Shown piece by piece: positions 9,709-61,728 of a stretch of DNA of 64,000 bases. The notes under the pieces were generated by a model, which ran no database searches, was not told the origin of the DNA, and saw nothing but the letters and a program-made list of their open reading frames with translations. The stretch lies in contig CM059432.1 in the NCBI GenBank assembly GCA_030390025.1, positions 7,626,001 to 7,690,000 on the forward strand, given 5' to 3'. The position numbers and the translations under genes were made by a program. This stretch comes from Squalus acanthias. Its lineage: Eukaryota. Position 1 is the first letter of the stretch; every line of letters begins with the position of its first letter.

Positions 9709-9786
9709 GATGGGTGATTCACTGGATCCTTAGTTCCGAGTTCGTCCAAAAAGTTTGAGTGCAAAGTTTTTCAAAGTTGATTAAAT

Positions 9787-24404: not shown

Positions 24405-25299
24405 CTAATAAATTGTAAGCACAGACTGCCACCACAATCTACGTCCCCTGTCTCTTCAGCAGGCTAATGTACAGGGACCCTGAATTCCTGGGTTCTGGGA
24501 GGGTATATTGATGGTGGGTTTTGCATGGTGTAGGGCAGGACCAAGATGCGCCAGGCTTCTGCCCCGTGTCAACTGTGTCCCAAATTGCGCTGGACATGAT
24601 CAGGAAGAAGAAGCGCCCATCCAGTAAGAATTACCAGCATGTTAAATGAGGGTCCTGGGATGGGATGAAAGCAACCATTCCCAACCTGACCTGCACCCTT
24701 CTAAAAAGTGCCTGTAAATGGCAAGCGTGCCTGCCAGCACCAGGTTATAGCGGAGTTCATGGATTCTTATAGACTCTTTTAGAGTCATAGGGGTAAAAAT
24801 TCAGTTGGTTGCGCCTCCCGTTAGCGCCTTAAGAGGGCGCTAATGGGGCGCAAAGCCGCTAACGCCCGGGCGCAGCGATGTTTGCGCCGCTCGAGAACTT
24901 AACTAGAGATTGTGCGGCGGCGCTAAAACTTACCGCTGCGACCACCTGCGCGCGCAGATTATGACGTCATTCCATGGTGCAACGCCCTTGTGGCGCCCCG
25001 GAGCGGAAATTGAGTGGCGCCCCCTGCCTTACCGCCTGGCGCTTCCAACGACCGGAAGACTGGAACGCTATCAATCGCTGTGGGGCTGGGGGGGGGCGCT
25101 ATTTAAAGGGGGCCTCTTCCTGTCTTTTTCTGTGGTCGACATTTATGCACCACTCGTTCTGAGAGAGAGAGAGAGATTCGGAGAGAGAGAGAGAGACTTC
25201 TACATTGACTCAACGCTTTGTGAGGTAGTTTTGCCTATTGATCCTAACTTTGCTGCTACTTTAGTTGCTGTCCCTCATTACTTTGCTTGCAAAGAGAAT

Positions 25300-26460: not shown

Positions 26461-26754
26461 GGCCCCTGCCATTGCTACCAACATTAATCAACCCAGCACG
26501 CAACCCCTAAGCCGGCCAAGGCACCAATAATTCCAACCATCAGCCATGTATATTTTGAATACAGAAACTTATTTATTTTACAAACTCTGTGTGTGTCAAT
26601 TCCTCATGACAAACTCATAGAAATAAACACAAAAAAACAGTCAATAACATAACTGGTTCTCACAACCTGGAGATAATGTCCAAAACACTAAACAAAAGTT
26701 GGACCATGAACCTCGGCCTTTAATAAAAAAATGACCAGCATTTTGTCACACCTC

Positions 26755-28630: not shown

Positions 28631-28970
28631 GCTTGGCAGCAAAATGGATTCACAGGTCTCTCCAGGCTGAGATTCAAGGCTGCAATGAGCAGGGTGTGGC
28701 TGGGGAGCAAGTGGCCCCCCCCCGCTTTAAGAAGTGGCCGGCGCCAGTGTGTCTGTGTTCCCTCGCTAACTGGCAGCAGCTGCGCTGCACTCGCGCGCTG
28801 AGTTAGCGCCTCACTCCTTGGCCTTTGCGCCTTAAGACAGGTGTGCAGCGCCTGATTTAGCGCTCCACTCACCTCCCGGGGCGGTAAAAGTGAAGTTTCC
28901 AGTCAGTGCCGATAATTAGCGTCCAGACGATATTTGCGCCCCAAATGGGGCGCGACCTAATTTCTACCCC

Positions 28971-31879: not shown

Positions 31880-32670
31880 CCTGAGATGAGAGGCTTGTCC
31901 TATGAGGAGAGATTGAGTAGATTGGGCCGATACTCTCTGGAGTTTAGAAGAATGAGAGGTGATCTCATTGAAACATATATAATCTGCCCATTTGAAGAGG
32001 TTCTGCTCTTCTCTCCGACGGGATTTCCATTTGTCTCTTTTACCTTGTTCATCTTCATTGCTTTCTGTTTCCCTTCTCGTGTTTGATCAGGTATCTCTTT
32101 CCTCCCCTCCCCCCTTTCCCTGCCCCTGCATTTGCTTAAAAATCTCTAACTTTTTCCAGTTCTGACGAAGGGTCATTGACCTGAAACGTTAACTCTGTTT
32201 CTCTCTTCACAGATGCTGCCTGACCTGCTGAGTATTTCCAGCATTTTCTGTTTTTAGTTCAGATTTCCAGCATCCACAGTATTTTGCTTTTGTATATATA
32301 ATTCTTGGCTTGACAGGGTAGATGCTGAGAGGTTGTTTCCCCTGGCTGAGAGTCTAGAACTAGGGGGCATAGTCTCAGGATAAGGGGTCGGCCATTTAGG
32401 ACTGAGATGAGGAGAAATTTCTTCACTCAGAGGGTTGTGAATCTTTGGAATTCTCTACCCAGAGGGCTGTGGATGCTCAGTCGTTGAGTATATTCAAGAC
32501 TGAGATCGATAGATTCTTGGGCACTAAGGGAATCAAGGGATATGGGTATCGGGCGGGAAGTGGAGTTGATGTAGAATTTCAGCCATGATCTTATTGAATG
32601 GTGGTGCAGGCTCGAAGGGCCATATGTCCTACTCCTGCTCCTATTTCTTATAATCTTATGTTCTTATGAG
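31880..32670 (+). mobile_element. CR1 3' fragment interrupted by a Penelope-like end (31984-32293)
   Basis: GLSYEERL..YSLEFRRMRGDLIETY; 9-bp duplication ATATATAAT at 31975-31983 and 32294-32302. Confidence 0.8.
32156..32197 (+). ncRNA. Minimal type I hammerhead ribozyme motif in a Penelope-like end
   Basis: CTGACGA - hairpin AGGGTC(ATT)GACCT - GAAAC GTTA, with short AGT/ACT flanking pairing. Confidence 0.7.
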
Positions 32671-37600: not shown

Positions 37601-38741
37601 AATGAATTAAAAAAAAGAGATTTACCAGAATGGACTCATGGATGAGAGACTTCAGTTATGTGGTGCGATTAGAGAAGCTGGGATTCTGGTACTTATGATT
37701 GTTCTCCTTAGAGCAGAAAAGGTTAAGGGGAGATTTAATAGTGGTGTTCAAAATTATGAGCGGTTTTGATAGAGTAGCCAGGGAGAAAGTGTTTCCACTG
37801 GTAGGAGGGCCGGTAACCAGAGGAGACAGGTTTACGATAATTGGAAAAAAATCCAGGGGGAAATGAGGAGAATATCTTTTTTACACAGCGAGTTGTTACG
37901 ATCTGGAATGCGCTGCCTGAAAGGGCGGAGGAAGCAGGTTCAATAGCAACTTTCAAAAGGGGAATTGGATAAATAGTTGAAAAGGAGAATGTTGCAGGGA
38001 TATGGGGAAAGAGCAGGGGGGGGTGGGCGAGTGGGACTGATTTGATACCTTGACCAAGGATGGGCTGAATGGACTTTCAAACTGCGCTGTGCGATTCTAC
38101 GAACTAACGTGGAGATTGTAGAAAGCTGCCTTTCCCAGGAGAGCGAATTGCTGCCATGCTGGAGGGTCCGGTCTGCAGATGAACTGGATTTTTTGAAAGT
38201 AGTCATGAAGGGAAGAAGATGACACGGAGATCAAAGTTGGGGGGAAATAAAAATAAATGTCCTAACTTTGGCACAACTCGTAGCATGACCACAAAATGAC
38301 ATAATGTCCTCAAAACCAAAGAATCACTCCAGACTTTGTGGCATTTGTCAACAAAGAGGAATTAAACTGCAGCAACAGTGTATAACCTTTTCTAATAAAC
38401 ATACCTGGAAGCAAAATCAATAAATATTGGAAAAGTGTATTAAGCAGGAAAAACAATTTTACAGCACAGTGCAATAACAGTGGCACTTCAAACTATAAAA
38501 ATGTAATTTGAAAGGATTCTTTGACAAATTACTTGTAAATTGCTATAGGCCAAGTACTCATCAGTATTCATCAGTGTTTCTGCCAGTGCGGTGTGAGCCA
38601 AACGAGTTACTAACACTTGCAGTGTTGGGTTGAATGTAACTGCGAGAATTGAACGCTGATTCTGTGGTAAAAAGAAACCAGAGAATGCTGGAAACAGTCA
38701 GCAGGTCGGGCAGCAGCTGCAGCGAGAGAAACAGAGTTAAC

Positions 38742-39527
38742 AGCTTCGATAGGTGGTGGGGGGGGTTAAACCCTAAAAAAAAAGTGAAACGCGACCCCGA
38801 CCCGCCGCCTTCCCGCCTGTCGCCATTTACTCACCGCCGGGTAGCGAGCAACGTTCCTGCTAATCTGCGCGGCCGCCCAGCGGTCCGGAGGTCCCGCGCA
38901 GGCCGCTCACCGGCTTTTCAATTGTAATAGCCGCGCATGCGCAAATAATTGAATGGGCCGCGCAGCCCGTTAAAGGGCCCGCCCACCGAAAAAAAAATCA
39001 CCAGGAACATTGGTAGCGAGGCTTAGAGAGGAGGGACACTTTGTTAAAATCAGGCTCCCGCGGTGCGGCTGGGAGCCTGGTTTAAACTTAACAGTAGCCG
39101 CGCAGGTTTCCCAGGGCGCGGGAAACCCGGCAGTGAAAGGGAGGCGGGAGCTGCCGGCTTCAGAAGGTGAGCACTTTTTACAGCACTCCGTGTGGGACCA
39201 GGAGGAGCAGGAATGGTTCCCCCCCCCCCACCCCCCATCCCTTCAACGAAGCCCTTGGCCTCTGTTCTGCCGATTGTGGCCTCTCTCTACAGCCCACGTC
39301 GCGATCGCCTCTCCCTCCCCCCCCACCCCCAAGCCCCAATCTGCAGCCTGCTCCCCTCCCGATTGCTGGGGTCCGTCCCCAGGGGTCAACCCGGCCGGCT
39401 GCTGGGCGGGAAACGGAAGATAAACATAATAGTGCGGTCCTGCCATTAAATATGGCAGGAGCTCCCCATCCCCGGCCTTGCCAGGTCGCTCCCGCTCCCT
39501 CCCCGCCTCAACGTAAATATCGGGGCC
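38742..39527. mobile_element. GC-rich MITE (probably Harbinger-type) inserted in the Penelope hammerhead motif
   Basis: 3-bp TSD AAC (38739-38741, 39528-39530); degenerate TIR agcttcgata / tatcggggcc. Confidence 0.7.
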
Positions 39528-39997
39528 AACGTTTCAGGTCGATGGCCTTTCATCAGAACTGGAAGATGTTTAGAGATGTTTTGAAGCATATACAGAGCTA
39601 GGGAAAGAACAAAAGGGAAGGTCATTGATAGGGTGGAGAGCAGGAGTGAATAAATGACAGCACCTCTTCTTTCGATTAGGCACTTTACAGCCTTCTGGAC
39701 TCAACATCGAGTTCAGTAATTTCAGACTATAACCTCGGCCCCTATGTTTTCTTTTTTCTCCCACATGGCAGCTGTTGATGATTCTGCCATTGCCATTTAC
39801 ACTTCATCTCGAGTCATCTTTTGTTTCTTAACTTGTCCCATTACCATCTCCTTTTGCCTTACAACATCATCCCTTTTGTCTCTTAATCTCTCCTGCCTTC
39901 CAGCCTATCACAGACCTTCCTTTTTGTTCTTTCCTCCCCCTCCTCCCTTTCCCTGTCCCTGCACTTGCTTAAAAATCTGTTACTTCTCCAACTTTTT

Positions 39998-40039
39998 CCA
40001 GTTCTGACGAAGGGTCATCGACCTGAAACGTTAACTCTG
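39998..40039 (+). ncRNA. Minimal type I hammerhead ribozyme motif (core 40004-40033)
   Basis: CTGACGA AGGGTC ATC GACCT GAAAC GTTA. Confidence 0.72.
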
Positions 40040-40710
40040 TTTCTCTCTCGCTCCACAGATGCTGCCTGACCTGCTGAGCGTTTCCAGCATTTTCTGTTGT
40101 TGTTTCAGATTTCCAGCATCCGCAGAATTTTGTTTTTGTATTAGTGAATAAATGATAGAAGGGATGATGGTGCAAGGCAAAAAGGAGGTGATTATGGGGC
40201 AAGAGATTGGTCCAGAGGAGGTGTAAATGGTTACAGAATGTGCAAGAGGAAATGGGAGCACTGGTTAAGATGTAACATTGTTAAACTCAATGTTAAGGCT
40301 GGAAGTGCTTGATTCTGTGGGTTTGCAGCCTAAGATTTGAAGGACTGTTCAGCAATGCAGGATGCTGATGTTCCAATTGTTGATTATTTTTACAGTAAAT
40401 GGCAGCCACTTTGGTGGATCATAAATGATGACAGCTTTAACAAAGCATCAAAGCAGCAATTTAGCCATATTTTGGGAAGAGGGGGTGTTTAAGTTAAATT
40501 TAGTCACGTTGCAAATTGCAAATTGTTATATGGTTTATTAGGACAGGTGACCAACAGCTTGGTCAAAGAGGTAGGTTTTAAGGAGCATCTTAAAGGAGGA
40601 GAGAGAGAGGTAGCGAGGCGGAGAGGTTTAGGGAGGGAATTCCAGAGCTTAGGGCCTTGGCATCCGAAGGCACGGCCGGCAATGATGGAGCGATGAAAAT
40701 CGGGGATGCA

Positions 40711-41835
40711 TAACATAGAAACATAGAAAAATAGGAGCAGGAGTAGTAGGCCATTCGGCCCTTCGAGCCTGCTCCGCCATTCAATATGATCATGGCTGAT
40801 CCTCTATCTCAATACCATATTCCCACTCTTTCCCCATACCCCTTGACGCCTTTTGTGTCTAGAAATCCATCTATCTCCTTCTTAAATATATTCAGTGACT
40901 TGGCCTCCACAGCCTTCTGTGGTAGAGAATTCCACAGGTTCACCACCCTCTGAGTGAAGAAATTTCTCCTCATCTCAGTCTTAAATGTCCTACCCCGTAT
41001 CCTGAGACTGTGACCCCTCGTTCTAAAGCCCCCAGCCAGGGGAAACATCCTCCCTGCATCCAGTCTGTCTAGCCCTGTCAGAATTTTATACGTTTCAATG
41101 AGATCCCCTCTCATTCTTCTAAACTCTAATGAATACAGGCCTAGTCAACCCAATCTCTCCTCATATGACAGTCATGCCATCCCAGGAATCAGTCTGGTGA
41201 ACCTTCGCTGCACTCCCTCTATGGCAAGTATATCCTTTCTTAGGTAAGGAGACCAAAACTGCACACAGTACTCCAGGTGTGGTCTCAACAAGGCCCTGTA
41301 TAACTGTAGTAAGACATCCTTGCTCCTGTACTCAAATCCTCTTGCAATGAAGACACAAAAGGCATCAAGGGGTATGGAGAGAGAGCGGAATATGGTATTG
41401 AGATAGAGGATCAGCCATGATCACATTGAATGGCGGAGCAGGCTCGAAGGGCCGAATGGCCTACTCCTGCTCCTATTTTTCTATGTTCTATGTTTCTATG
41501 AAGGCCAACATACCATTTGCTTTCCTAACTGCTTGCTGCACCTGCATGTTTGCTTTCAGTGACTGGTGTACAAGGACACCCAGGTCCCTTTGTACATCCC
41601 AATCTAGCACCGTTTAAATAATACTCTGCCTTTCTGTTTTTCCTACCGAAGTGGATAACTTCACATTTATCCACGTAATACTGCATCTGCCATGTATTTG
41701 CCCACTCACTCAACTTGTCTAAATCGCCTTGAAGCCTCTTTGCATCCTCCTCACAACTCACAATCCCACCTAGTTTTATGTCATCAGCAAACTTGGAAAT
41801 ATTACATTTGGTTCCCTCATCCAAATCATTGATAT
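40711..41835 (-). mobile_element. CR1 3' fragment inserted in an L2, itself containing an opposite-strand CR1 3' end (41352-41500)
   Basis: KFADD..; RRNFFTQRVV; (CATAGAAA)n tail; L2 sequence resumes at ~41836. Confidence 0.85.
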
Positions 41836-42458
41836 AAGAGGGCAGAATTGTAGCAGTGCAGAGATCTCGGGGGGGGGGGGGGGTTGTAGGACTGCAGAAG
41901 GTTACAGAGAAAGGGGGGGGGGGGGGCGAGGCCACGGAGGGATTTGAAGACAAGGATGACAATTTTAAAATCGATGCGTTGCCGGATCAGGAGCCAATGA
42001 AGGTCAGCGAGCACAGGGGTGATGGGTGAACGGGACTTGGTGCGAGTTTGGGCATGGGCAGCAGAGTTTTGGATGACCTCAAGTTTACGTAGGGTAGAAT
42101 GTGGGAGGCCAGCCAGGAGTGCGTTGGACTAGTCAAGTCTAGAGGCAACAAAGGCACGGATGAGGGTTTCAGCAGCGGATGAGCCGAGGCAGGGGCGGAG
42201 TTGGGCGATGTTACGCAGGTGGAATCAACATATCCTTTGCCGGCTTTAGTACATCCATTGGAGCAGTGATTGATCTATGACCCGTGTAAGATGGGTATAA
42301 TCCGCTGAGAGGCATTGAAATGACAGTCCAATTCTGACTAAGCGCTGCGGCAACAGACTGGGAGACAAGCAGATAAGGAAGGAGCATTGCTTGGCTCATG
42401 CACTTGACTCTCAGCTAACTTCACAGCATATCTCATCAATCTTCTTCCGATACTTCAC

Positions 42459-42900
42459 AGCCTTGTCTCAGTGGTAGCACCCTCACAGCTGAGTCAGAAC
42501 AATTCAAGTCCCACTCCAGAGATTGGGCCACGTAATCTAGGCTAACACTCCCAGTGCAGTGCTGAGGGAGTGCTGCACTGTCGGAGGTGCCGTCTTTCGG
42601 ATGAGAGGTTAAACCGAGGCCCCGTCTGCCCTCTCAGGTGGACGTAAAGGATCCCACGGCCACTATTTCGAAGAGGAGCGGGGGAGTTATCCCCGGTGTC
42701 CTGGGGCCAATATTTATTCCTCAACCATTGGCATTCCAACAGATTATCTGATCATTATCACACGGCTGTTTGTGGGAGCTTGCTGAGCGCAAATTGGGTG
42801 CTGAGTTTCCCTACATTACAACAGTGACTACACTTCAAAAGTACTTCAATGGCGATTTGAGTCATCCCGAGATCATGAAAGGTGTTATGTAAATTCAACT
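42459..42900 (+). mobile_element. Near full-length tRNA-derived Deu-domain SINE (SacSINE1-like)
   Basis: A/B-box-like head (ctcagtggtag, ttcaagtccc); Deu-like core gtgccgtctttcggatgag...aaaccgagg...gatccca...gtgtcctgg.ccaa; L2-like tail. Confidence 0.8.
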
Positions 42901-44154
42901 TCCTTCCTTCTTCTGACCAAACAATTGGATATGTGGTTATCTATCCCATCATCTAAGTCGTGAATAAATATGGTGAATAGTTGAGGCCTCAACACAGATC
43001 CCTGTGGGACACCACCAGTCACATCCTGCCAATTAGAGTACCTGCCCATTATCCCTACTCTCTGTCTCCTGCCGCTCAGTCAATTTCCTAACCTGGTCAA
43101 TAATTTGCCTTCAATTCCATGAGCTTCAACTTTAGCTAACAGTCTCTTATGTGGGACTTTATCAAATGCCTTCTGGAAGTCCATATCAATAACATCCATA
43201 GACATTCCCCTGTCCACTACTTTAGTCAGCTCTTCAAAAAAAATTCGACCAGGTTTGTCAGGCATGACCTACCTTTCACAAATCCATGCTGGCTCTCTCT
43301 GATCAGCTGAAAATTTTCAGGGTGTTCAGTCACCCTGTCCTTAATCATAGACTCATGACATGTGCCGTTAGTTAGACTTTTCCTTCACTATTCAGCTCGA
43401 AAAATTTTACACTGCTAATTGCTTCAAGTGCGATCTGATAATGGACCTTGATACATGATGGGACCAATATAATCAATGAGATTTAAGGATTGAGATAGAA
43501 ACAGAGGAATGACGGTGAATGAGAATCAAATCAGGTACAGTGAAAGAAATAAAGAGAGGGAAAGAAAAATTGGATTAAGAGAGAGAGAGAGAGAGACAGA
43601 GAAACAGAAAGGAAAAGTAAGAAAAAATAATATTTACATTTTTAAATTTAAAAAATCTCCAACAACAATTTATTATTTGTAGGAATGAATTTCCCCAGTT
43701 TCAATTGTTCCCTTTTTGAGCTGGAGAGGGTGAATGGCATTGCAGGAACATACATTTCCTCATTGAAAAGGTACTTATGCTGTTAAGTGCCAGCCCTAAC
43801 TGTCAGCGGCGAGTTTAATTGGGCAATTAATGCGCAAATGCAGCAATTTCTCCAAACTCACCGGGTGGGGGGAGAGGGAGGGGTGGTTGAGGGCGAGCTG
43901 CCGGCGGAGCAGCGCAAATCGTCCAGCGATTCGCAATTCACGGGGTACCTCGTGCTCGCCACAAGCTGCTGGACCATTTACACGTTAATGATGGCGAGCT
44001 CCGTTAAACCCCCCCCGCACCCCCCACCCGTTATTTTGGCAGCAAATTCTGGCCTAAAATGTGACGCAAAATGAGACTAACCCCTCAATGCACTTGAACT
44101 GCAGCATCTGCGCGAAATCAAACTGTTCTGCACTGACTCGGCAGTTTAGAGACT

Positions 44155-45046
44155 GAGGAAAAATTCAGTATCGCCCCGTTTGGGGCACAATTATCGGCCG
44201 GGCGCAAAGATTGGTGCCTGGCGCTAATTATCGCCTCCGACTGCAAACTTGACTTTTATCGCCCCTGGAGGTGATTGGAGCGCTAAATCAGGTGCTTCAC
44301 AACTGTCTTAAGGCGCAAAGGCCGAGGAGCGAGGCGCTAACTCAGAGCGCTGGCGAAGCTCATGTGATGTCAGTCAGCAATGGAACACAGACACACTGGC
44401 CCCGGCCAGTTCTTAAAGGGGAGGGTTGATCTTGCTTTCCATCCACATCCTGCTCATTGCAGCCTTGAATCTCGACCTGGAGAGACCTGCACATCAAATC
44501 TGCTGGAAAGAACAATGGAGAGACCCAGGGAAAGAGCTCAGAGTGCAGCCCCCACAGTCTCTTCTAAATCGATACAAGGAAGGGCAAATCAAAATGAATC
44601 TGCAAAGTGCTGTTCAGTACCCAAAACTCCTTCACACAGCGTTGAATCTCTCCAGAAGTCTCTCTCTCTCTCTCTCAGAATGCGTGGTTCAAAAATGTCG
44701 CCAACAAAAAAAGGCAGGAAGCGGTCGCCTTTAAATAGCGCTCCACCAGTCCCTTCCTGACTGCAAAATGCTCCCCTCAACCTGTCGTTGCTAGTGGCAG
44801 GCGGTAAGGCAGGGGGCGCCACTCAATATCCGCACCGGGGCGCTACCGGGGCGTTGCGCACTCGACTGACGTCACGATCTGCCGGCGCAGGAGACCGTGG
44901 TGGTAGTGTTTAGCGCCGCCGCAAAATGTCTAGTTAATTTCACGAGCGGCGCAAACATCGCCACGCCCGGGCGCTAGTTGCTTTGCGCCCCATTAGCGCC
45001 CTCTTAAGGCGCTAACGGGAGGCACAACCAACTGAATTTTTCCCCC
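44155..45046 (-). mobile_element. Internal-deletion derivative of the Harbinger family at 24790-28970 (inverted)
   Basis: 44155-44550 matches the Myb-side end including the start MERPRERA; ~44570-45046 matches the reverse complement of 24790-25290. Confidence 0.88.
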
Positions 45047-46489
45047 TGAGTGCACCGTTAGAAACTGACACTTTCCATTCTGTACGACGAAGGATGGAAT
45101 ATTAAAGTTAATTAATCCTAACTAAACCTTGCAGCGCTTGACAGAAGCTTATTTTTCTCAGCAAGTAATTTGTCTTGCAAGTAATGGAAAGGAATAGCAG
45201 GATATGCCGAAAGGGATAGACGGCAGTGCTGATAGGGTGAGATGAAGAGGGGTGGGAGGAGGCTCGCTTGAAGCGTAAACACCGGCGCGGGCCAATTTGA
45301 ATGGCCTGTTTCTGCGCTGTAAGTGCTATGTGATTCTACCTAGATCGTGCCCTGTATTGCCAACAGGAAATTTAAAAAGATCACTCACTTGCTTGTCAAT
45401 GTTACAAGGTAGTGGTACCTGAATGTGAATTGCATTATATAGGGGCACTAATGTTTGTTGGTGGACAGTGGCAAAAACCATGGCTCAGCAACAGCTGACG
45501 TCCACAAAGGCTCTAATCTAATCTCAGTTGAAAGTTCGTAAAACATGGCCTCACCATACAGCACCTCCCAAACACGCGACCTCTACCGCCTAGAAGGACA
45601 AGGGCAGCAGGCGCATGGGAACACCACCACCTCCAAGTTCCCCTCCAAGTCACACACCATCCTGACTTGGAAATATATCGGCCGTTCCCTTCATCGTCGC
45701 TGGAACTCGCTCCCTAACAGAACTGTGGGAGCACCTTCACCACACGGACTGCAGCGGCTCAAGAAGGAGGCGGCTCACCACCACCTTCTCGAGGGGCAAT
45801 TAGGGATGGGCAATAAATGCCGGCCTTGCCAGCGACACCCACAGGAGCCGAACACCTCGAGTCTCTTCGCCGGGAGCAAGCGGAAGCCAAGTGCAGGCAG
45901 CGCAAGGAGTGCACGTCAACCCAAGCACCCCACCCACCCGCCCCTTCAACCACCTTCTGCCCCACCTGTGACAGAGACTGTAGGTCCCGCATTGGACTCA
46001 TCAGTCACCTGAGAACCCATTTTTAATGTGGAAGCAAGTCATCCTCGGTTCCGAGGAACTGCCTAAGAAGAAGAAGAAGAGCACCAAGTCGATCAAGGAA
46101 TATTTTTAAAGCCGATGCATTTTTTCAAAAACTTGCGTTCTAAAACGCTGCCCGATTACACTGTTTGTGGCAGATTTTGCATTCGGTGACACGCAAACGA
46201 GTTTGACAAAAAAAAAGTTTCTCAAAACTAGTGCAATTTTGGCCGCAATTTGAGCCCATTTCGCTGATCAATATAAGAACATAAGAACATAAGAAACAGG
46301 AGCAGGAGTCGGCCATTTGGCCCGTCGAGCCTGCTTTGCCATTCAATAAGATCATGGCTTATCCGATCTTGGCCTCAACACCACTTTCCCGCCCGCTCCC
46401 CATAACCCTTGACTCCCTTAACTTTCACCCAAAGCGGAAATTCCATCTTTGCATTTTCTGTTCAAATTGCGAAAGAGTCCACAACGGAT

Positions 46490-47848
46490 ATTTTTATTCT
46501 TTCAAGGGATGTGGGCGTCGCCTGCAAGGCCAGCATTTATTGCCCATCCCTAGATGCCCTGGAGAAGGTGGTGGTGAGCTGCCTTCTTGAACCGCTGCAG
46601 TCCGTGTGGTGAAGATAATCCCACAGTGCTGTTATTCTTAGTATACTTTTTTGTAGCAGTTTGATGCAAAACAGAGTTTTGAGTGGCTTGCTGGGCCATT
46701 TCAGAGAACAGTTAAGAGTTAAGCACATTGCTGGACTCATATGTAGGTCAGACCAGGTAAGGACAGCAGATTTCCTTCCCGAGAGAACATTAGTGAACGA
46801 AATGGGTTTTATACCACAATCTGGTAGTTTCATAGTCACCATTACTGATACTAGCTTTATTAATTCCAGATTTGATTTAATTAACTGAATTTAAGTTCCA
46901 CCAGCTGCCATAGGTGGGATTTGAACTCATAGGGCTGGATTTTCAATGACCCGTGGAGTCGGGTTTGGAGGCGTGTGGGGGGTTAAAGTTGCAGATTTGG
47001 GGGTCCCGACCCCATCCCGCCTCCAACCCGCCTCCATGCCAGTTTCGCTGGCGGCGGGTATCCGACCTGTGCTGAGACCCGACTCCCCGAGGCGGGAAGG
47101 GATTAGTGACAGTTAACTGCCTGTTAACAGGTAGCTAACAGGCAGTTTTTTGGATAATCCCTATTTTAAACGGTGAAATGTGGGCTTCCCGACAGGTGGC
47201 AACCACGCCAAGTTATCGGGGCGGGCCGTGGGTCTGCAGGGGTTGGAGGGGTCGATATGTCCGGTGGGCAGGTGAGTGATGGGTGCATGTGTGCAGAGGT
47301 AAGTGTGTAAGTTAAGTGCTAAGTGTGGGAAAAAGTTTTACTTACCTTAACTTCCTCCTGCAGGTGTCAGCCCTTCAGTTCTCGGGAGTTAGAAATCTCA
47401 CCGGCACAGAAAGCAGGAAAGCCGTGGTCCTGTCAAAAACTGCAGCCTTCTGTTTTCTGTGGTGGAATGATTTCTAACTCAGCCTGAGAGGAAGGACTCA
47501 AGTTAGAAATCATATTGTCAGTGTTTGACAGCTTCACAGAGCTGTCAAACGCTGATATTTCATCTGTCAAAAGCTCTTGACAGATGAAATGTCAATCTGT
47601 GACGTCACCTGTTGCCGGGTGGCCCTTAATTGGCCTGCTGAGCCCGTTGGGTGGGCTCAACAAGGTCAATCAAGGGAAAATACAGTGGGTTGGCCACAAG
47701 TCGACGGAGGCGGGTTCACAAGCCAGAATGTGGGATTCACGACCCCAACTCGACCCCAGTATCAAAATCCAGCCCAAAGTCTGGCAGATCATTAGTCCAG
47801 GACCTACTGGATTACTAGTCCAGTAACACAGCCACTATGCTACCGTAC
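46490..47848 (-). mobile_element. tRNA-derived SINE with a tail shared with the Zenon-like LINE, split by a MITE
   Basis: Minus-strand head ggtagcatagtgg...gagttcaaatccc; 46500-46640 matches the LINE 3' end at 15410-15545. Confidence 0.65.
46932..47775. mobile_element. MITE with GGGCTGGATTTT TIRs (probable Harbinger type)
   Basis: Perfect 12-bp TIR; shares subterminal sequence with 53992-54591 and 60961-61728. Confidence 0.85.
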
Positions 47849-48918
47849 CGAGATGTGTCGCTCTACCATTAGCTGTGTGAAAACGCCATCTCGATATCTG
47901 GCTTACCATTGAAGGCCATGACGTTCCTGTACTTGCACGGTAGATATGAACTAAACTCGCCACAGGAAGTTAAATCTTGTCCATTTCAGTCTCATTACCC
48001 TTTTAACGACGTGACAAGTGTTAATTACTGCCAGTCAACCTCGCTGGCATTGAAAATTAACTATTCCTGGTGCGGAGTCTCATTCCTTCAGGTTTTAATT
48101 GTTGTTGGACATTTAAAAAAAAATTAAAGTTAAACTTTTCTTTCTGGCTCTTTTTTTTACTCCCTCTCTTAATCCAATCTCACTCTCCCTCTCTTCTGTG
48201 CCTGATTTGCCATCTAATTCACCCACTCTAACTTACACTTCCTTTTCAGACATTGTGCTGTTCATTTCACAATCTGTCAATCTGATTGTTTAAGGCGATA
48301 CACAATTGCTTGCCTGGTTTACTCAGGTCCCAGATGCCGTGTAGAGCGCGCCATGCGTTAAACTTAAATAAAGCCAATTACATAGGTATGAGGGGCGAGT
48401 TGGCTAAGGTAGATTGGAAAAATAGATTAAAAGGTATGGCGGTAGATAAGCAGTGGCTAGCATTTAAAGAAATATTTCATAATTCTCAACAAAAATACAT
48501 TCCATTGAGAAACAAAAACTCCAACCCTGGCTAACTAAAGAAGTTAATGATAGCATTAGATTGAAAGAAGAAGCTTATAATGTTGCGAAGAATAATAGTA
48601 AGCCTGAGGATTGGGAGAGTTTCAGAAACCAGCAAAGGTTGACCAAAAAATTGATAAAAAGGGAAAAAATAGAATATGAGAGAAAACTAGCAAGAAATAT
48701 AAAAGCAGATTGTAAGAGTTTCTACCAGTATGTAAAAAGGAAAAGAGTAGCAAACGTAAACGTCGGTCCCTTAGAGGCTGAGACAGGAGAAATTATTATG
48801 GGGAATAAGGAAATGGCAGAAACGTTAAACAAATATTTTGTATCTGTCTTCACAGTAGAAGACACAAAAAGCATACCAAAAATGGTGGGGAACCAAGGGT
48901 CTAATGAGGGTGAGGAAC

Positions 48919-51900
48919 TGTAAGGTTTCCAAAATTTTGCAGATCCCCAAAAACCTAAGGAATAAGGACTTTGGAACTACCTCAGAGTGATAAAAATGCA
49001 TTTGGGCCTAACCTAAGGAATTTAAGACCAAAAACCAAGTTTTGGCATTTTAAAACTATGTCTGGGCCTGTAAAGGGACAAGGAGGTGGAATCGACCTCT
49101 GTAAAAGCAGTTTGGTTATTGCAGTTAATTGCATTGTCTGGGGAACCAGGATGACCTCACTCAAGCCCCAGCAGACATTAATATTTGACAATAGACCCTG
49201 GGAGAAGACAGTCCCACCCAAAATAACAGGCCCCATCAAACCGATTACAGGGCCCATCAGAAACATGCAAAATAAAACCCACTCGGGACCATTCTATAGA
49301 AAAGACCGAGTCCAGCCTAGAAAACCAAAACATGAAATCAATCACCAGTGATCAACCAAGGAGATTGACAGGATGCAAACCATCCCAAAGGCCATTTGAC
49401 ACTTACAGAGCAGTTACTGGTAACAGGCCCGCCAAAATCATACATAGATACATAGATACATAGAAGATAGGAGCAGGAGTAGGCCATCCGGCCCTTCGAG
49501 CCTGCTCCGCCATTTAATGAGATCATGGCTGATCCTCCAATTCAGTATCCCGTCCCCGCCTTCTCTCCGTAACCCTTAACCCCTTTTGCCTGTAGAAATA
49601 TATCTAATTCCCTCTTAAATATATTTAATGAGCTGGCGTACACTGCCCTCTGTGGCAATGAGTTCCACAGGTTCACCACCCTCTGAGTGAAGAAATTCCC
49701 CCTCATTTCTGTCCTAAATGGTTTAGCCCTTATCCTTAAATTATGTCCTCTGGTTCTGTTCTCACCCGCCAAGGGAAACATTCCTTCTGCATCTAGTCTG
49801 TCTAGACCTGTCAGAATTTTATACACTTCTATGAGGTCCCCTCTCAATCTTCTAAACTCCAGTGTGTACATCCCTAAACTACATAGTCTCTCCTCATAGG
49901 TCAATCCCGCCATTCCTGGTATCAGCCTGGTGAATCGCCGCTGCACCCCCTCCATGGCAAGAACATCTTTCCTCAGATGAGGCGACCAAAACTGTACACA
50001 GTACTCGAGGTGTGGTCTCACCAGTGCCCTGTACAGCTGCAGCAAGGTATCCCTGTTCCTGTATTCCAACCCTTTTGCTATGAAGGCCAGCATACCGTTT
50101 GCCTTCTTGATCGCCTGTTGCACCTGCATGCTCGCCTTCAGTGACTGGTGTACAAGAACACCCAGGTCTCTCTGTACTTCCCCCTCTCCCAATTTATTGC
50201 CATTTAAATAATAATTTGCCCTCCCGTTCCTGCACCCAAGGTGGATAACTTCGCACTTGTCCACATTATAGTGCATCTGCCATTTATCCGCCCAATCACC
50301 CAGTCTGTCCAAATCGCTCTGGAGCTTCCTGGTCTCCTCCTCTGAGCCCACCCCCCCTCCTAGTTTAGTGTCGTCTGCAAATTTGGAAATGCTGCATCCG
50401 ACTCCCTGATCCAGGTCATTAATGTAAATTGTGAACAGCTGGGGACCCAGGACAGATCCCTGTGGTACCCCACTTGTTACTGCCTGCCATTCAGAAAATG
50501 AGCCGTTTATTCCAACTCTCTGTTTTCTATCTGACAGCCAGTTCTCTATCCACGTCAATACTTTCCCCTTTATCCCATGAGCTTCAATTTTCCATGTTAA
50601 TCTTTTATGTGGGACCTTGTCGAAGGCCTTTTGGAAGTCCAGGTACACCACATCTACTGGCTCTCCCCCATCTATTTTACCAGTTACTCCCTCAAAAAAT
50701 TCCAATAGATTAGTCAAGCACGATTTACCCTTTGTAAATCCATGTTGACTCTGTCCTATCCTGTCCCCATTTGCTAAGTGCTCCGCTATTTCATCCTTAA
50801 TGATGGACTCCAGCATTTTGCCCACAACTGATGTAAGGCTTACAGGTCTGTAATTACCTGCTTTTTCCCTACCCCCCTTTTTGAATAGTGGGGTAATGTT
50901 AGCTACCCTCCAATCCATGGGCACTTTTCCCGAGTCTAATGAATTCTGAAAAATCATACTTAGTGCATCCGCTATCTCTAGGGCCACCTCCTTCAGTACC
51001 CTAGGATGCATGTTATCAGGCCCTGGGGAATTGTCAATGAACTGAGTAGATTTGGTGGGTAGATAAGGCCATGTTCAATGGGTGAGATTGAAGGCCTGTT
51101 AAAAAACCAGTTAACGCGCTAGTAAGTCGTTACCGATTTACGAGCCCGCCAAAACCAGACAATGAACTGAGTAGATTTGGCGGATAGATAAGGCCACTTC
51201 AATTCAGTATAATTGAAGGCCCATTAAGCAGTTCAAGGTCGCAGTCCGTGGTCATCAGAAGAAGAAGAAACCAGGAAGAAGACAAAACCGAGCTGGAAGC
51301 GAGTCGGCATCGCTCACCACTCAGACACACCTGAGTCCAGCTCGTGAAGATACCACCTCGACGGACCTCCAACAACGATCCCAATACAGTCACCCGGAGC
51401 AACAAGCAGCAACAAGTCACCGACGGCTCTACGAGGTCGACCGACACACTAGACAAGGCCTAAAACCATCGCGGAAACCAAAGGCCTCAAGTAACCAACA
51501 ACCGCATATTACCCCCAACGGACCGAGTAATAGCAGGCCACCGCGACCAACTCAAGGGAAGAAAACCCGAAGAACCGCAAAGTTTCCACACTACAAACTA
51601 CTCCTGACTTACCCCTGGGTAAGATTTCTACCAAAAGACTCTAAACCCTACTCCTAACCAAAGGAAATTGGGTACTCACCTGATAGATCCAAAACGCACC
51701 CTACCGCATCAGCGGACTCGCGAAGACTGACCAGAGACGCAGGTGAAGTCCTCTACCGCATACGGGGTACGGCAGACACTAACCGCCATAAACAGCGAAC
51801 CCCAAAACCGTGATTTAGCCCAACTGTCAAAGGATTGGTGAGCATTATCCCTGGTCCTTCAAAGTCCAACTTAGCTAGTAAAGTGGGGTTGGGAGGGGTG

Positions 51901-52147
51901 AAGTATTGTTCTACTGTCATTTCCCTCGCTTGTACCAAAGTGTTCCCCACCTTTAGAGTGTTAAGAGTGTTATTATTTGTGTCTTACCTTTTAATAAAGA
52001 TTGAAGTTCTTTCATCAAACTCAGTTGTCTGCTGCACCTTTTATCACAACCCCCAAATAAGTCCAAGGTCTAGAACCAAGGGAGTGGGAGTGATTCGAAC
52101 CGCTCAGAAGTCAGAGGTGAAGCTGACACAAACCACCACCCCCTACA
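48919..52147 (+). mobile_element. Long solo LTR (~1.6 kb after removing the nested CR1)
   Basis: TGTA...TACA ends; 4-bp TSD GAAC (48915-48918, 52148-52151); AATAAA at ~51993; internal direct repeats; no coding motifs. Confidence 0.85.
49441..51035 (-). mobile_element. Young 5'-truncated CR1 with an uninterrupted RT-to-C-terminus frame (ORF 49542-51011, 489 aa)
   Basis: NYRPVSLTS, GVPQGSVLGP and FADD motifs; (TATGTATC)n-type tail. Confidence 0.93.
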
Positions 52148-53778
52148 GAACTTAACGTAATTAATATAAGTAGAGAAAAAGTACGAGAGAAACTAATGGG
52201 ACTAAAAGCTGACAAATCCCTTGGACCTGACGGCCTACCTCCTAGGGTTCTAAAAGAGGTGGCTGAAGAGATAGTGGATGCATTGGTTTTGATCTTCCAA
52301 AATTCCCTAGATTCTAGAATGGTGCCAGCGGATTGGAAGGTTGCAAATATAACACCGCTATTCAAGAAAGGAGGGAGAGAAAAAGCAGGGAACTACAGGC
52401 CAGTTAGCCTGACATCAGTCGTCAGGAAAATACTGGAATCCATTGTTAAAGAAGTGGCATCAGAGCACTTAGAATATCATAACATGATTAGGCAGAGTCA
52501 ACATGGTTTTATGAAAGGGAAATCGTGTTTGACAAATTTATTCGAGATTTTTGAGGATGTAACTAGCAGGGTAGACAAAGGGGAACCGGTCGATGTAGTA
52601 TATTTGGATTTCCAAAAGGCATTCAATAAGGTGCCAAATGAAAGGTTATTACACAAGATTAGGGCTCATGGGATTGGGGGTAATATAGTAGCATGGATAA
52701 AGGATTGGCTAATGGACAGAAAGCAGAGAGTAGGGATAAACGGATCTTTTTCAGGTTGGCAGGCTGTAAATAGTGGGGTGCCGCAAGGATCAGTGTTGGA
52801 GCCTCAGCTATTTACAATCTATATTAATGACCTAGATGAAGGGATCGAGTGTAATGTATCCAAGTTTGCTGATGATACAAAGCTAGGTGGGACAGTAAGT
52901 TGTGAGGAGAACACAAAGAATCTGCAAAGGGATATAGATAGACGAAGTGAGTGGGCAGTAAGGTGCCAGATGGTGTATAATGTAGGGAAATGTGAGGTTA
53001 TTCACTTTGGTAGGAAGAATAGAAAAACAGAATTTTTTTTAAATGGTGAGAAACTTTCAAATGTTGGTGTTCAGAGAGATTTGGGTGTCCTCGTGCAAGA
53101 AACACAGAAAGCTAGAATGCAGGTACAGAAAGCAATAAGGAAGGCAAATGGCATGTTGGCCTTTATTGCAAGGTAAGAGTAAGGAAGTCTTGCTACAATT
53201 GTACAGGGACTTGGTGAGACCACACCTGGAGTACTGTGCACAGTTTTGGCCTCCTTATCTTAGGAAGGATATGCTTGCCTTGGAGGCGGTGCAACAAAGG
53301 TTCACTGGATTGATTCCTGGGATGAGAGGGCTGTCCTGTGATGAGAGATTGTGTAGAATGGGCCTATACTCTCTGGAGCTGAGAAGAATGAGAAGTGATC
53401 TCATTGAAACATACAAAATTCTGAAGGGGATTGACATGGTAGATGCTGAGAGGTTGTTTCCCCCTGGCTGGAGAACTAGGGGGCATAATCTCAGAATAAG
53501 GGGTCGGCCTTTTAAAACTGAAATGAGGAAGAATTTCTTCACTCAGAGGGTTGTGAATCTTTGGAATTCTCTGCCCCAGAGGGCTGTGGATGCTGAATCG
53601 TTGAGTATATTCAAGGCTGAGACAGATAGATTTTTGGACTCGAGGGGAATCAAGGGATATGGGGATAGGGCAGGAAAGTGGAGTTGAGGTCGATGATCAG
53701 CCATGATCTTATTGAATGGCGGAGCAGGCTCGAGGGGCCGTATGGCCGACTCCTGCTCCTATTTCTTATGTTCTTATG

Positions 53779-54690
53779 TACTTGTCTGATTACCATCTCC
53801 TTTTGCCTTGCACCATCATCCCTTTTGTCATTTAATCTCTCCTGCCTTCCACCCTATCACAGACCTTCCCTTTTGTTCTTTTCTCCCCTCTCCCCTCCCC
53901 CCTCCCCTTTCCCTGCCTCTCTACTTGATTAAAACCTGTTACATCTCCAACTTTTTCTAGTTCTGACGAAAGGTCATCGACCTGAGACGTTGGGCTGGAT
54001 TTTGATACTGGGGCGGGTTGGGGTCGTGTTATCCACCCGACTGCAATTGGATGTGGGAGATTGATGCAATTTTCACCTAATTGGGCAATTGAGTTCCAGC
54101 ATGTGGGAACCCATGAACCAATTAGTGTTTTGAGTCTGAAAGTCGCCTCTGATGATGTCATCTATGCAGAGAGAGAGAGAGAACCTGAAGGCAAAATGTG
54201 CAGCAGCCCTAGGTCTGCTCCCAGATATTTTTCCTACTACTACTTCTCCATTGTGATAGTGGACCTGCAGCTGATAGTCAGCTTTCGAAATGTGCTCCCG
54301 CCAGGTTTCACAATCGTGTTTCAGAACAGGCGTGCTTCACGTAGAAAAAGGGTTAAAATCACAAAGGCCTTTCAAAATGGCATTATCGAGGCAATTTAGT
54401 GCTTGTTAAGGGTCTTAACAGCCTATCCCGTCTCTTAAAGGCGGGACGGAGTCGGGACCAGCAGACACGATTTAATGAAAATTGCGTGGAGGTGGGATGG
54501 AGGCGGGCTTGTGCCCGCCCGCCAGTTTTCGCAATTTTAACCCCCCACACGCCTCCAAACCCGCCTCCACGGGTCAATGAAAATCCAGCCCGTTGACTCT
54601 GTTTCTCTCTCCACAGATGCTGCCTGACCTGCTGAGTGTTTCCAGCATTTTTATTTCAGATTTCCAGAATCCGCAGTATTTTTCTTTAGT
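53779..54690 (+). mobile_element. Penelope-like end interrupted by a GGGCTGGATTTT MITE (53992-54591)
   Basis: Homologous to 39830-40135; TSD GTT (53989-53991, 54592-54594). Confidence 0.85.
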
Positions 54691-57948: not shown

Positions 57949-60176
57949 ACCGGTTTTAAGGAGCGTCTTAAAGTAGGAGAGAGGCGGAGAGGTTTAGGGA
58001 GGGAATTCCAGATTTTAGGGACTAGGCAGCTGAAGGCACGGCCGCCAATGGTGGAGCGATTAAAATCGGGGATGCGCAAGAGGCCAGAATTGGAGGGGCA
58101 CAGAGATCTCGGAGGGTTGTAGGGCTGGAGGAGGTTACAGAGATAGGGAGGGGTCGAGGGCCATGAAAGAATTTAAACACAAAGATGAGAATTTTAAAAT
58201 TGAGGCGTTGCCAGACCGGGAGCCAATGTAAGTCAGCGATCACAGGGCTGATGGATGAACGGGACTTGGTGCGAGTTAGGACACCGTTTATAACTCTTCT
58301 TCCAATTGCTGTTATTGCAGAATTAAATATTACATGAAGAAAATCTTTAAACATCACATTTTCATTTAATGTATTTTCCTATAACAAACACATTAGTGTG
58401 TATGGTATTAATATTGTATTATTTGATTTCATCATCAAAATTTTAACACTATCTGTATATAAGAATTCTACGATAATTTCTCTCTATCCATTGACTTAAA
58501 TTTAATAAAATGCGAAAATGAATGTGAATGTTACATTAATAGAATCTTTACTTTTGAACGTCGTAAAGTCGATGCTATTACACGCAAGTCCTTTTTTGAA
58601 TTTAGAATAACCAAACTGAATGATGAAAGTCTTGACAAATGTTGATACAGAAATTATGCACCTTTGCATTTAAAGGATTGAAAGAGTTAAAGTCACACTT
58701 TCTTTCTCAGAGATTTATCACTATCATTAATTCAGAGTTTACAAATCAATCAAACAAACCCATAATTGGACTGAATTAGGCAGAGGATCATTAATAATGA
58801 AATTACCGCAATATAATTTAAATACCACTGTAAATGCATCTTGAATGGCTTTTATAAAGAGCCGGAGGAATTCAACACAGCAGTAGAAGAATTAATGTCT
58901 TTTGCAAAATGAATCATCAGTCTCTTTAAGGCTCAGAAAGCAGAATGTTGGAGCATCAAATGCTTTTAAGTCTGCACAGACAGTACAAGATAATGTTGCT
59001 TTTCATTTAGCTGGCCTTTCAGTGCCCATGGTTAGCTTGACGCATTGTGGATTTAAGAACATAAGAATTAGGAGCAGGAGTTGGCCATTCGGCCCCTGGA
59101 GCCTGCTCCGCCATTCAGTAAATTCATGGCTGATCTTGGACCTCAACTCCACTTTCCCGCCCGATCCCCACCTCCCTTGATTCCCTCAGCACCCAAAAAT
59201 CTATCAATCTCTGTCTTGAATATGCTCAACGACTGAGCATCCGCAGCCCTCTGGGGTAGAGCATTCCAAAGATTCACAGCCCTCTGAGTGAAGAAATTCC
59301 TCCTCATCTCAGTCCTAAATAGCCCGACCCCTTATCCTGAGACTGTGACCCCTAGTTCTAGACTCTCCAGCCAGGGGGAAACAGCCTCTCAACATCTACT
59401 CTGTCAATCCCCCTTAAGAATTTTACATGTTTCAATGAGATCACCTCTCATTCTTCAATTCCAGAGATAGTTCCTGGGGTTGTCCACTAGAACCTTGACT
59501 AACAAGTTATGAAACACAAAAAAGAGAAATGTATGAAATAAAAACAGAAAATGCTGGAAATACTCAGCAGGTCAGGCAGCATCTGTGGAGAGAGGAAGAG
59601 GGTTAACGTTTCAGGTCGATGCCCTGAAGAGAAATGTATGCTTGTGCCATTTTATACCACGTGGCTCCACAGTTGCTGTTTTGAACTCTCAGCAAAAGCT
59701 CGTGTTAGCAGAGTCTGAGAGAACGTGATCATAGGTGGAATCTCATAATACCTCATAAGTCACATCACCATGTATTGAAGTAATTTAAGAGCTAAAAATC
59801 TTAATTTTCCTTTCCAACTTTTTAGCAGCGCAAATTATGGCTTCCACAAAGTTAGAGAAAGCACTGAATAGAAAGTAATTTCCAAAAGAGTCAATTACAT
59901 TTACTATTGCACAATGCAACGATAAATCTCGGTATCATGGAGATATTTATAGTCTAATTTCCCTTGCGTAAACACAGCTGTAAGGAAGACTGGCTACGGT
60001 GGGCAATGAGGTTTTCCAGCCAGCTGTGTATCTTCCATTGTTCAGACTATCATCTCATTTGTGCTTCTTCTCCATTTTCTCTTCATGACTTTGGCTTTCA
60101 ATATGACACGCTTCACTAAAAATCTCTGCGTCAATGAATTGCAATCAGGAGTATAAGCATAGAATCATAGAATCAT

Positions 60177-60960: not shown

Positions 60961-61236
60961 GGGCTGGATTTTGTCTTGGGGTCGGGTTGGGGTCGTGTTA
61001 TCCGCATTTCGTGTTCCCCCCCCCCCGACTCCAGATTAATGTGGATGAATGATGCAATTTTCACTTAATTGGGCAATTGAGTTCCAGCATGTGGGAACCC
61101 ATGAACCAATTAGTGGTTTGAGTCTGAAAGTCGCCTCTGATGATGTCATCATTGCTGACTGACTGACTGGTCTCAGAGACTGTCTGGCTGTTGGTGAGAG
61201 AGGAGCCTGGTTTTTGATGTGAGTGGACCTGGATGT

Positions 61237-61275
<39 letters not shown>

Positions 61276-61728
61276 CCTCTCACACCAAATGCCATGCATT
61301 CAATGCAGTAGCATCAGAGGTGACTTTCACACCTAATACTACTACTACCTTCATCACAATACTACTACTACCTTCATCACATCTCCGTTGTAATAGTGGA
61401 CCTGCAGCTGATAGTCAGCTATCCACTTGTGCTCCCGCCAGGTTTCACTGGAATGTTTCACACCAGGCGCACTTCACGTCGGAAAAGGGTTAAACTAGCT
61501 AAAACATTTCAAAATGGCATTACAGAGCCAATTTAGGGCTTGTTAAGAGCTTTAATGGCCTCTCCCGCCTCTTGGAGGCGGGGCGGAGTCGGGAACCCCG
61601 CGACTGATTTTGTCAAAATTGCGTGGAGGCGGGATGGAGTCGGGATGGGGTCGGGACCCCCGACCCCGCAACTTTAACCCCCCACACGCCTCCAAACCCG
61701 ACTCCACGGGTCATTGAAAATCCAGCCC
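60961..61728. mobile_element. MITE with GGGCTGGATTTT TIRs
   Basis: 12-bp TIR; internal similarity to 53992-54591; (GA)n at 61243-61272. Confidence 0.85.

What the first reader, a model, noticed from the sequence alone, without database searches (positions are those of the whole stretch)
38739..54594. Two different MITEs inserted at the identical GTT of the Penelope hammerhead core
Seen: one MITE (38742-39527) splits a minus-strand copy as GAAAC-GTT[MITE]GTT-AACTCTG. A different MITE (53992-54591, GGGCTGGATTTT ends) splits a plus-strand copy as GAGAC-GTT[MITE]GTT-GACTCTG. The same trinucleotide, next to the predicted cleavage site, is duplicated in both, although the inserts differ in ends and sequence. 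Inference: Harbinger-type transposases may target this AACGTTAAC palindromic site, making Penelope ends a landing pad and inactivating the ribozyme. Alternatively, ribozyme-destroying insertions are preferentially retained.
Basis: partly seen in the sequence, partly recalled or inferred. Interest (0 to 1): 0.75.

Follow-up and report, generated by a model that had tools for sequence, protein, structure and literature searches.

The report
Harbinger landing site inside Penelope ribozyme
About 2,500 cut-and-paste transposons in this genome sit on the same three bases of a predicted self-cutting RNA motif at the end of a retrotransposon, likely because that DNA happens to spell their preferred landing sequence and not because they seek out or are kept for disabling the ribozyme.

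Summary
Observation confirmed: two unrelated Harbinger-type MITEs each duplicate the GTT of a Penelope minimal-hammerhead motif. It is a genome-wide single-base hotspot: about 2,570 filled against 75,203 empty sites, many families, both orientations. The likely cause is target sequence. Both end types prefer a palindrome CAGANWY-WWW-RWNTCTG. A matrix trained without these sites ranks the GTT first of 471 positions, and its second-ranked site, outside the ribozyme, is also a peak. A ribozyme-free LINE site is far more occupied (34% versus 1.9%), the rest of the catalytic core is almost never hit, and ATT-mutant copies are hit more. So the relevant palindrome is not AACGTTAAC, and selective retention is not supported. 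One side finding: one duplicated triplet is sometimes foreign (62 filled versus 30 empty sites; 9 of 9 checked keep a host-like partner), possibly carried from the donor site. The scan already reported this hotspot and that lead, in this genome and others.

The parts
38742..39527 (-). MITE1, 786 bp non-coding Harbinger-type element; ends GGCCCCGATATTT and eroded AGCTTCGATAGG
   Evidence: no transposase or Myb hit inside; bases 42-143 are 71% identical to the end of an element with transposase remnants (L316)
38739..38741 (-). target duplication, 3' copy (GTT on minus strand)
39528..39530 (-). target duplication, 5' copy (GTT on minus strand)
39531..39657 (-). 5' half of the older Penelope 3' end hosting MITE1, with CUGAUGA box, stem II and GAAAC; continues at 40156-40203 beyond the nested copy
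   Evidence: BLAST and core pattern
38679..38738 (-). 3' half of that Penelope end (AACTCTG... tail)
   Evidence: 85% identity to the intact copy
39658..40142 (+). younger 5'-truncated Penelope copy nested in the MITE1 host: end of the GIY-YIG ORF, 3' UTR, intact minimal hammerhead motif (40000-40036, GTT at 40030-40032); 13-bp duplication at 39645-39657 and 40143-40155
   Evidence: same ORF end as the RT plus GIY-YIG copy L371
53764..53988 (+). 5' half of the Penelope end hosting MITE2 (core variant GAGAC)
   Evidence: 84% identity
53989..53991 (+). target duplication, 5' copy (GTT)
53992..54591 (+). MITE2, 600 bp internal-deletion derivative of a Harbinger transposon; perfect 12-bp TIR GGGCTGGATTTT
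   Evidence: 3' 347 bp 88% identical to the terminus of a transposase-bearing element (L379); bases 74-176 match the Myb end of 3.0-3.2 kb elements (L421-L423)
54592..54594 (+). target duplication, 3' copy (GTT)
54595..54681 (+). 3' half of the Penelope end hosting MITE2
   Evidence: 84% identity
32096..32284 (+). empty Penelope end with intact motif (reference for the unfilled site)

Best explanation
Harbinger transposons of many families have inserted about 2,500 separate times at one triplet of a high-copy Penelope end, likely because the hammerhead's conserved letters happen to form a near-perfect copy of their palindromic DNA target. Shown: the hotspot, its single-base sharpness, the independence of events, the family-wide target preference CAGANWY-[WWW]-RWNTCTG, and that the site CTGAAAC-[GTT]-AACTCTG departs from it mainly at the G of the triplet. 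Inferred: the transposase/Myb complex reads about 17 bp of DNA, makes a 3-nt staggered cut around the triplet and inserts. The GAAAC core box and the AACT strand of stem I supply the two half-sites, and about 75,000 copies of the site supply the numbers. Any loss of ribozyme activity would be a by-product, mostly in truncated dead copies.
For: (1) Target logos from ends sampled without regard to flank: 83 half-sites for GGGCTGGATTTT, and 83 non-hammerhead of 90 for GGCCCCGATATTT. (2) Matrices trained without hammerhead sites (62 and 81 half-sites after collapsing repeats) rank the GTT first of 471 positions in the Penelope end for both end types; it lies in the top 0.11% and 0.006% of 791,906 background positions. 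(3) Out-of-sample test: the second-ranked site, TTA at 39883, 147 bp upstream and outside the ribozyme, takes 21 of 27 insertions in its 31-position window. (4) Variants predicted to fit better are more occupied: CGTT 1,232 of 65,097 (1.9%), CATT 897 of 6,408 (14%), TGTT 282 of 5,146 (5.5%); CATT versus TGTT, the two decay products of one CpG, odds ratio 2.8. Left ATT has right ATT in 16 of 20, so the change mostly preceded insertion. (5) A LINE RT site with no ribozyme: 1,853 filled, 3,627 empty, 10 of 10 true transposon ends, host ORF RVT_1 E 1e-28. (6) Controls: 2 hits in the 31 positions after a downstream anchor; 7 hits over the upstream core, of which 4 are the same site reached through deletions, 2 lie just before the triplet and 1 is elsewhere. 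(7) 89 inserts form 49 clusters by their 5' 250 nt; MITE2-like ones are 8 forward, 9 reverse. (8) An extended palindromic target is a described property of vertebrate Harbingers (PMC3016246, PMC2836001, passages).
Against: The matrices under-predict the share of insertions at this site: 0.5% predicted against about 2.1% (2 x 779 of 72,543) for the MITE2 end type, and 4.4% against 7 of 90 (7.8%, CI 3.2-15.4%) for the MITE1 end type. The matrix predicts TGTT to be worse than CGTT, yet it is 3-fold more occupied. Copy age or decay after insertion would explain this, but my host-divergence comparison showed no clear age difference (means 6.9-9.3%, n 8-29). Logos come from chromosome C1 only. Foreign triplets at junctions add noise to the triplet part of the logo and to the variant counts. 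The LINE filled and empty patterns are not matched in length, so 34% is approximate. No transposase assay was done.
Confidence: 0.87

Rival explanations
1. Insertions that destroy the ribozyme are preferentially retained, for example because an intact hammerhead cuts host transcripts.
For: The insertion falls at the predicted cleavage position; the matrix under-predicts the share 2- to 4-fold.
Against: Insertions elsewhere in the core would break the motif equally but are nearly absent (1 of 7 hits clearly elsewhere). Copies whose 15.2-16.2 pair is already broken are more occupied, not less. A non-ribozyme LINE site is more occupied. Metazoan minimal hammerheads showed no detectable cleavage as monomers (PMC4209133, parts 1-2 of 4 read).
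Confidence: 0.04
2. These Harbingers evolved their target preference to use abundant Penelope ends as a safe haven.
For: For the MITE1 end type this site is the most recurrent target in the sample (7 of 90 half-sites) and scores 11.2 bits.
Against: 83 of 90 MITE1-type and 83 of 83 MITE2-type ends lie elsewhere. The consensus site is suboptimal at the G. The WC-NNN-GW core resembles the zebrafish Harbinger3_DR target (PMC3016246 passage), so the preference looks older and general.
Confidence: 0.05
3. A few ancestral MITE-in-Penelope composites were copied onward by retrotransposition or duplication.
For: One near-identical pair exists (L015 and L016), and a MITE end amplified inside another repeat was seen (9 of 30 loci).
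Against: 49 clusters among 89 inserts, both orientations, more than 30 different 7-base starts; the two window MITEs are unrelated.
Confidence: 0.01
4. The cruciform or hairpin potential of the ACGT/GTTAAC palindrome, rather than base reading, attracts the transposase.
For: The site contains AACGTT and GTTAAC palindromes and stem II next to it.
Against: GTT to ATT and GTT to YTT break AACGTT yet raise occupancy (14%; 97 of 1,030 with 22 control hits). Other hotspots have no such hairpin and share the logo.
Confidence: 0.03

Closest known systems
Zebrafish Harbinger3_DR (PIF/Harbinger), target AAACACCWGGTCTTT (PMC3016246 passage citing Sinzelle et al. 2008, which I did not read; PMC2836001 passages)
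   Same: 3-bp duplication, separate DDE transposase and Myb/SANT genes in the autonomous partners, extended palindromic target with a WC-NNN-GW core.
   Different: Here the triplet is loose and A/T-rich (WWW) rather than CWG, and the outer arms are CAGA/TCTG; many families share it; the target coincides with high-copy repeats, giving hotspots.
Minimal hammerheads of metazoan Penelope-like elements (PMC4209133, parts 1-2 of 4 read; PMC11167929, passages)
   Same: CUGANGA and GAAA boxes, extra base between 9 and 10.1, 5-bp stem II, 4-bp stem I, palindromic 15.2-16.2 pair, position after an RT plus GIY-YIG ORF.
   Different: Pair 10.1-11.1 is A-U or G-U, not the usual G-C; position 17 is U; no activity data; no report of DNA-transposon hotspots in the parts I read.
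mPing/Pong staggered cleavage of the target duplication and donor TTA carry-over (PMC4561436 and PMC11254759, passages)
   Same: An excised element with 3-nt overhangs from its old site would explain the foreign triplets seen on one side of some insertions here.
   Different: In mPing the carry-over was shown at Cas9 cuts, and free insertions are described as having intact duplications. Here the mismatches are at natural insertions in a vertebrate-type genome and are only inferred to be donor-derived.

Membership tests
PIF/Harbinger MITE | 3-bp target duplication | tested here: met
   GTT/GTT at both window elements; 26 of 36 unselected MITE2-type elements have identical triplets
PIF/Harbinger MITE | Terminal inverted repeats | tested here: met
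   MITE2 12 of 12; MITE1 7 of first 10, eroded
PIF/Harbinger MITE | MITE2 ends shared with elements encoding a DDE_Tnp_4-type transposase and a Myb/SANT protein | tested here: met
   L379 and L418 (transposase 720-750 bp from the shared end), L421-L423 (Myb; PF13873 E 9e-9 for L423)
PIF/Harbinger MITE | MITE1 ends shared with a coding partner | tested here: inconclusive
   Only 102 bp at 71% to L316, whose transposase remnants are 28-45% identical; L366 has the same end motif and a transposase fragment but no BLAST match to MITE1
PIF/Harbinger MITE | Extended palindromic target preference | tested here: met
PIF/Harbinger MITE | Mobilisation needs both proteins | not testable with these tools
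   needs a transposition assay
Penelope-like element (endonuclease-bearing) | RT followed by C-terminal GIY-YIG in one ORF upstream of the repeat | tested here: met
   L371 has a frameshifted ORF with YIDD and LVY..YIG motifs. Pfam hits are below cut-off (RVT_1 E 0.066; GIY-YIG E 0.13). Atlas score 0.97 to clusters with PF26215 95% and PF01541 32%; another has PF00078 14%. The Penelope label for this architecture follows PMC4209133.
Penelope-like element (endonuclease-bearing) | Direct repeats (pLTRs) on both sides of the ORF | tested here: inconclusive
   One long copy examined; it is 5'-truncated with a single motif downstream
Minimal type I hammerhead | CUGANGA, GAAA and UH core with unpaired base after A9 and palindromic 15.2-16.2 | tested here: met
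   self-duplex of the ACGU region -5.5 kcal/mol
Minimal type I hammerhead | G10.1-C11.1 pair | tested here: not met
   A-U in 75, G-U in 49, G-C in 1 of 126 copies; a typical rather than absolute feature, so the motif is called predicted
Minimal type I hammerhead | Structure support (covariation, Rfam match, fold) | tested here: inconclusive
   Stem II 95-99% paired in 126 pattern-selected copies, without two-sided changes; no Rfam hit at E 1; monomer minimum-energy fold keeps stem II only
Minimal type I hammerhead | Self-cleavage after H17 | not testable with these tools
   needs in vitro assay of dimers

The most novel reading that the evidence does not exclude
Natural Harbinger insertions often keep, on one side, the three bases carried from the previous site instead of a true duplicate of the target. 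The hotspot makes this visible because the pre-insertion triplet is known. Doubly changed triplets (mostly TAT and CAT) occur at 62 filled left junctions against 30 empty sites, about 60-fold enriched. In 9 of 9 such elements with a visible right junction the other triplet differs and is host-like. If true, target duplications of this superfamily are heteroduplex products that record each element's donor site, which would allow donor-to-acceptor chains to be traced.
Probability: 0.55. Interest if true: 0.62.

Novelty: new member of a known kind. Interest (0 to 1): 0.38.

Why it matters
It is a clean natural experiment on transposon targeting: thousands of insertions into one defined site and its point mutants give in vivo preferences, and CpG decay of one repeat creates better targets for another. 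It warns that shared insertion sites in such genomes are homoplasy-prone markers and that a peak on a functional motif need not mean selection. The ribozyme link itself appears coincidental. The foreign-triplet signal, if it is donor carry-over, would refine the PIF/Harbinger integration mechanism.

Tried and rejected
Rfam scan of the window: no hit at E 1. Folding the monomer gave stem II but not the three-way junction, uninformative for a motif thought to act as a dimer. The first TIR-pair scan (104 elements) mixed in false pairs and pre-selected autonomous copies, so logos were rebuilt from half-sites. The stem I tally is unusable because filled copies were included. Host divergence did not separate filled from empty copies. 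An inverted 5' pLTR was considered for 39531-39657 and rejected because of the 13-bp duplication around the nested copy. The top 20 transposase loci had GGGCCAGAAATT or GGGGGAAAAATT ends, not the window MITE ends; partners were found among other loci instead. Literature: no paper held all of Harbinger, Penelope, nested, insertion hotspot; the listings showed no title on this hotspot or on donor-derived duplications at natural Harbinger insertions. The library lacks most subscription papers and Repbase reports, and no supplements were read. Sense/antisense intron comparison was not possible.
Full report
Observation. Both junctions are as described. MITE1 (38742-39527) and MITE2 (53992-54591) each carry a GTT duplication inside the same repeat, on opposite strands, and share no more than a 19-bp match. 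The window holds three further copies of the repeat end: 32096-32284 and 39658-40142 with the site intact, and a fragment at 59534-59624.

The host. The plus-strand copy at 39658 begins in an ORF end that matches longer genomic copies. One of these, L371, has a frameshifted ORF with reverse-transcriptase and C-terminal GIY-YIG motifs. Pfam scores are below cut-off, but the Atlas places it at 0.97 with clusters carrying PF26215 and PF01541. This is the architecture of Penelope-like elements (PMC4209133, parts 1-2 of 4 read). The motif reads AGUU-CUGACGA-A-GGGUC-AUC-GACCU-GAAA-CG-U-U then AACU, which fits the minimal hammerhead descriptor except for pair 10.1-11.1. The duplicated GTT is the predicted cleavage triplet. 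Rfam finds nothing and activity is untested. The genome is 3.7 Gb; its repeats look like those of a cartilaginous fish, which is recalled and was not tested.

The inserts. MITE2's 3' 347 bp are 88% identical to the end of an element with a Harbinger transposase 750 bp inside, and its 5' part matches the Myb end of 3-kb elements (PF13873 at E 9e-9). MITE1's link is weaker. The genome has many intact Harbinger transposases (150 scored of 63,886 candidates), and 11 of 20 extended loci gave GG-starting TIR pairs with 3-bp duplications that look genuine, of 12 with any pair.

Scale of the hotspot. Left junctions followed by GG number 1,232 (CGTT), 897 (CATT), 282 (TGTT) and 97 (CYTT, with 22 control hits), plus 62 with doubly changed triplets (stricter end pattern). 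In the loci checked, 29 of 30, 29 of 30 and 30 of 30 were transposon ends. Empty sites number 63,865, 5,511, 4,864, 933 and 30. About 2,500 sites, 3%, are therefore filled; exact patterns make these lower bounds. With an anchor that allows 31 positions, 91 of the first 100 of 390 matches fall on the one base. A downstream anchor of similar copy number (11 versus 9 in 792 kb) gives 2 matches. An upstream anchor, rarer in the sample (2), spans the rest of the core and gives 7, mostly the same site. Of 89 inserts, 49 clusters form, and MITE2-like ones lie 8 forward and 9 reverse, so the events are independent.

Why there. Ends sampled without regard to flank give CAGASWC-WWW for the MITE2 end type and CAGANWY-WWW for the MITE1 type. 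None of 83 MITE2-type half-sites and 7 of 90 MITE1-type half-sites are at the hammerhead; the commonest MITE2-type target is a LINE site (8 left and 3 right halves). Matrices built without hammerhead sites rank the GTT first of 471 positions in the Penelope end, and score MITE2's host variant GAGAC-GTT-GACTC higher still. The second-ranked site for the MITE2 type was then tested and holds 21 of 27 insertions in its window. Occupancy is 1.9% for CGTT, 14% for CATT and 5.5% for TGTT; left ATT is matched by right ATT in 16 of 20. The LINE site, in an RVT_1 ORF (the CR1-like label is recalled), is about 34% filled. An extended palindromic target is known for vertebrate Harbingers (PMC3016246 and PMC2836001, passages); barley Harbingers prefer a short TAA (PMC5738225, passages); two-gene Harbingers with 3-bp duplications are described in fish (PMC9179366, passages).

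Against. The matrices under-predict the site's share: 0.5% against about 2.1% for the MITE2 type and 4.4% against 7.8% for the MITE1 type. The denominator 72,543 also includes ends amplified in another repeat (9 of 30 loci). TGTT is more occupied than predicted, and the age test that might explain this showed no clear difference. Samples come from C1. These gaps leave room for shape, chromatin or age effects but do not point to the ribozyme. In Anolis, hammerhead mutants did not affect insertion in vitro (PMC11167929, passages), so the biological cost of breaking the motif is itself uncertain.

Foreign triplets. Earlier notes of this scan suggested that one triplet is often overwritten, and I tested this. 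Triplets with two changes are at 62 filled and 30 empty sites, odds ratio 62; most filled ones are TAT or CAT, which are common duplications of these families elsewhere and nearly absent from empty sites (1 TAT and 2 CAT). Of 14 such elements fetched, 9 showed the right junction; none matched the left, and the right read ATT 4, GTT 3, ATG 1, TTT 1. Of 15 other odd-left elements, 14 showed both ends: 5 matched and 9 differed (two re-read by eye). The right side also shows odd triplets: 53 of 779 have a non-T middle base, and 6 of the first 100 read ATG. Staggered cleavage of the duplications (PMC4561436, passages) and donor TTA carry-over at Cas9 cuts (PMC11254759, passages) make donor origin plausible. 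Gene conversion between MITE copies is not excluded.

Verdict. A real and strong hotspot, produced most likely by a known property of Harbinger transposons meeting a very abundant repeat. My literature searches did not find it in print, but this scan has reported it several times, in this genome and others. Novelty: new member of a known kind. Interest 0.38, carried partly by the foreign-triplet lead.

Noticed in passing
window 24790-28970: Full-length 4,181-bp Harbinger with GGGGTA TIRs, ATA duplication, an open DDE_Tnp_4 ORF (24907-26460, E 1e-37) and a convergent Myb/SANT gene (E 1.5e-6).
   Followed up: partly
window 60961-61728 and 46932-47775: Two more MITE2-family elements at other targets; the first has mismatched triplets ATG and ATC.
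   Followed up: partly
window 52911-52931 and 23050-23070; L411-L420: LINE RT site that is a stronger Harbinger hotspot than the hammerhead; further recurrent LINE targets appear.
   Followed up: yes
window 39645-40155: Penelope copy nested in an older antisense Penelope end with a 13-bp duplication.
   Followed up: yes
G000:C1 1437234-1437286, 2732867-2732939, 4009534-4009596 and others: Many hammerhead motifs occur as close inverted pairs 30-60 bp apart, tail to tail at stem II, suggesting inverted 5' ends formed near the motif.
   Followed up: no
L061, L063-L066, L077, L078, L086, L087: A GGGCTGGATTTT end with an identical flank in 9 of 30 loci near the start of C1: a MITE end amplified within another repeat.
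   Followed up: no
window 18380-20010: Purine-rich tandem array with a period of about 37 bp and strong GC skew.
   Followed up: no
window 5762-9729 (minus): Two long overlapping ORFs (289 and 1,057 aa) that look like an LTR retroelement gag-pol; label recalled, not tested.
   Followed up: no
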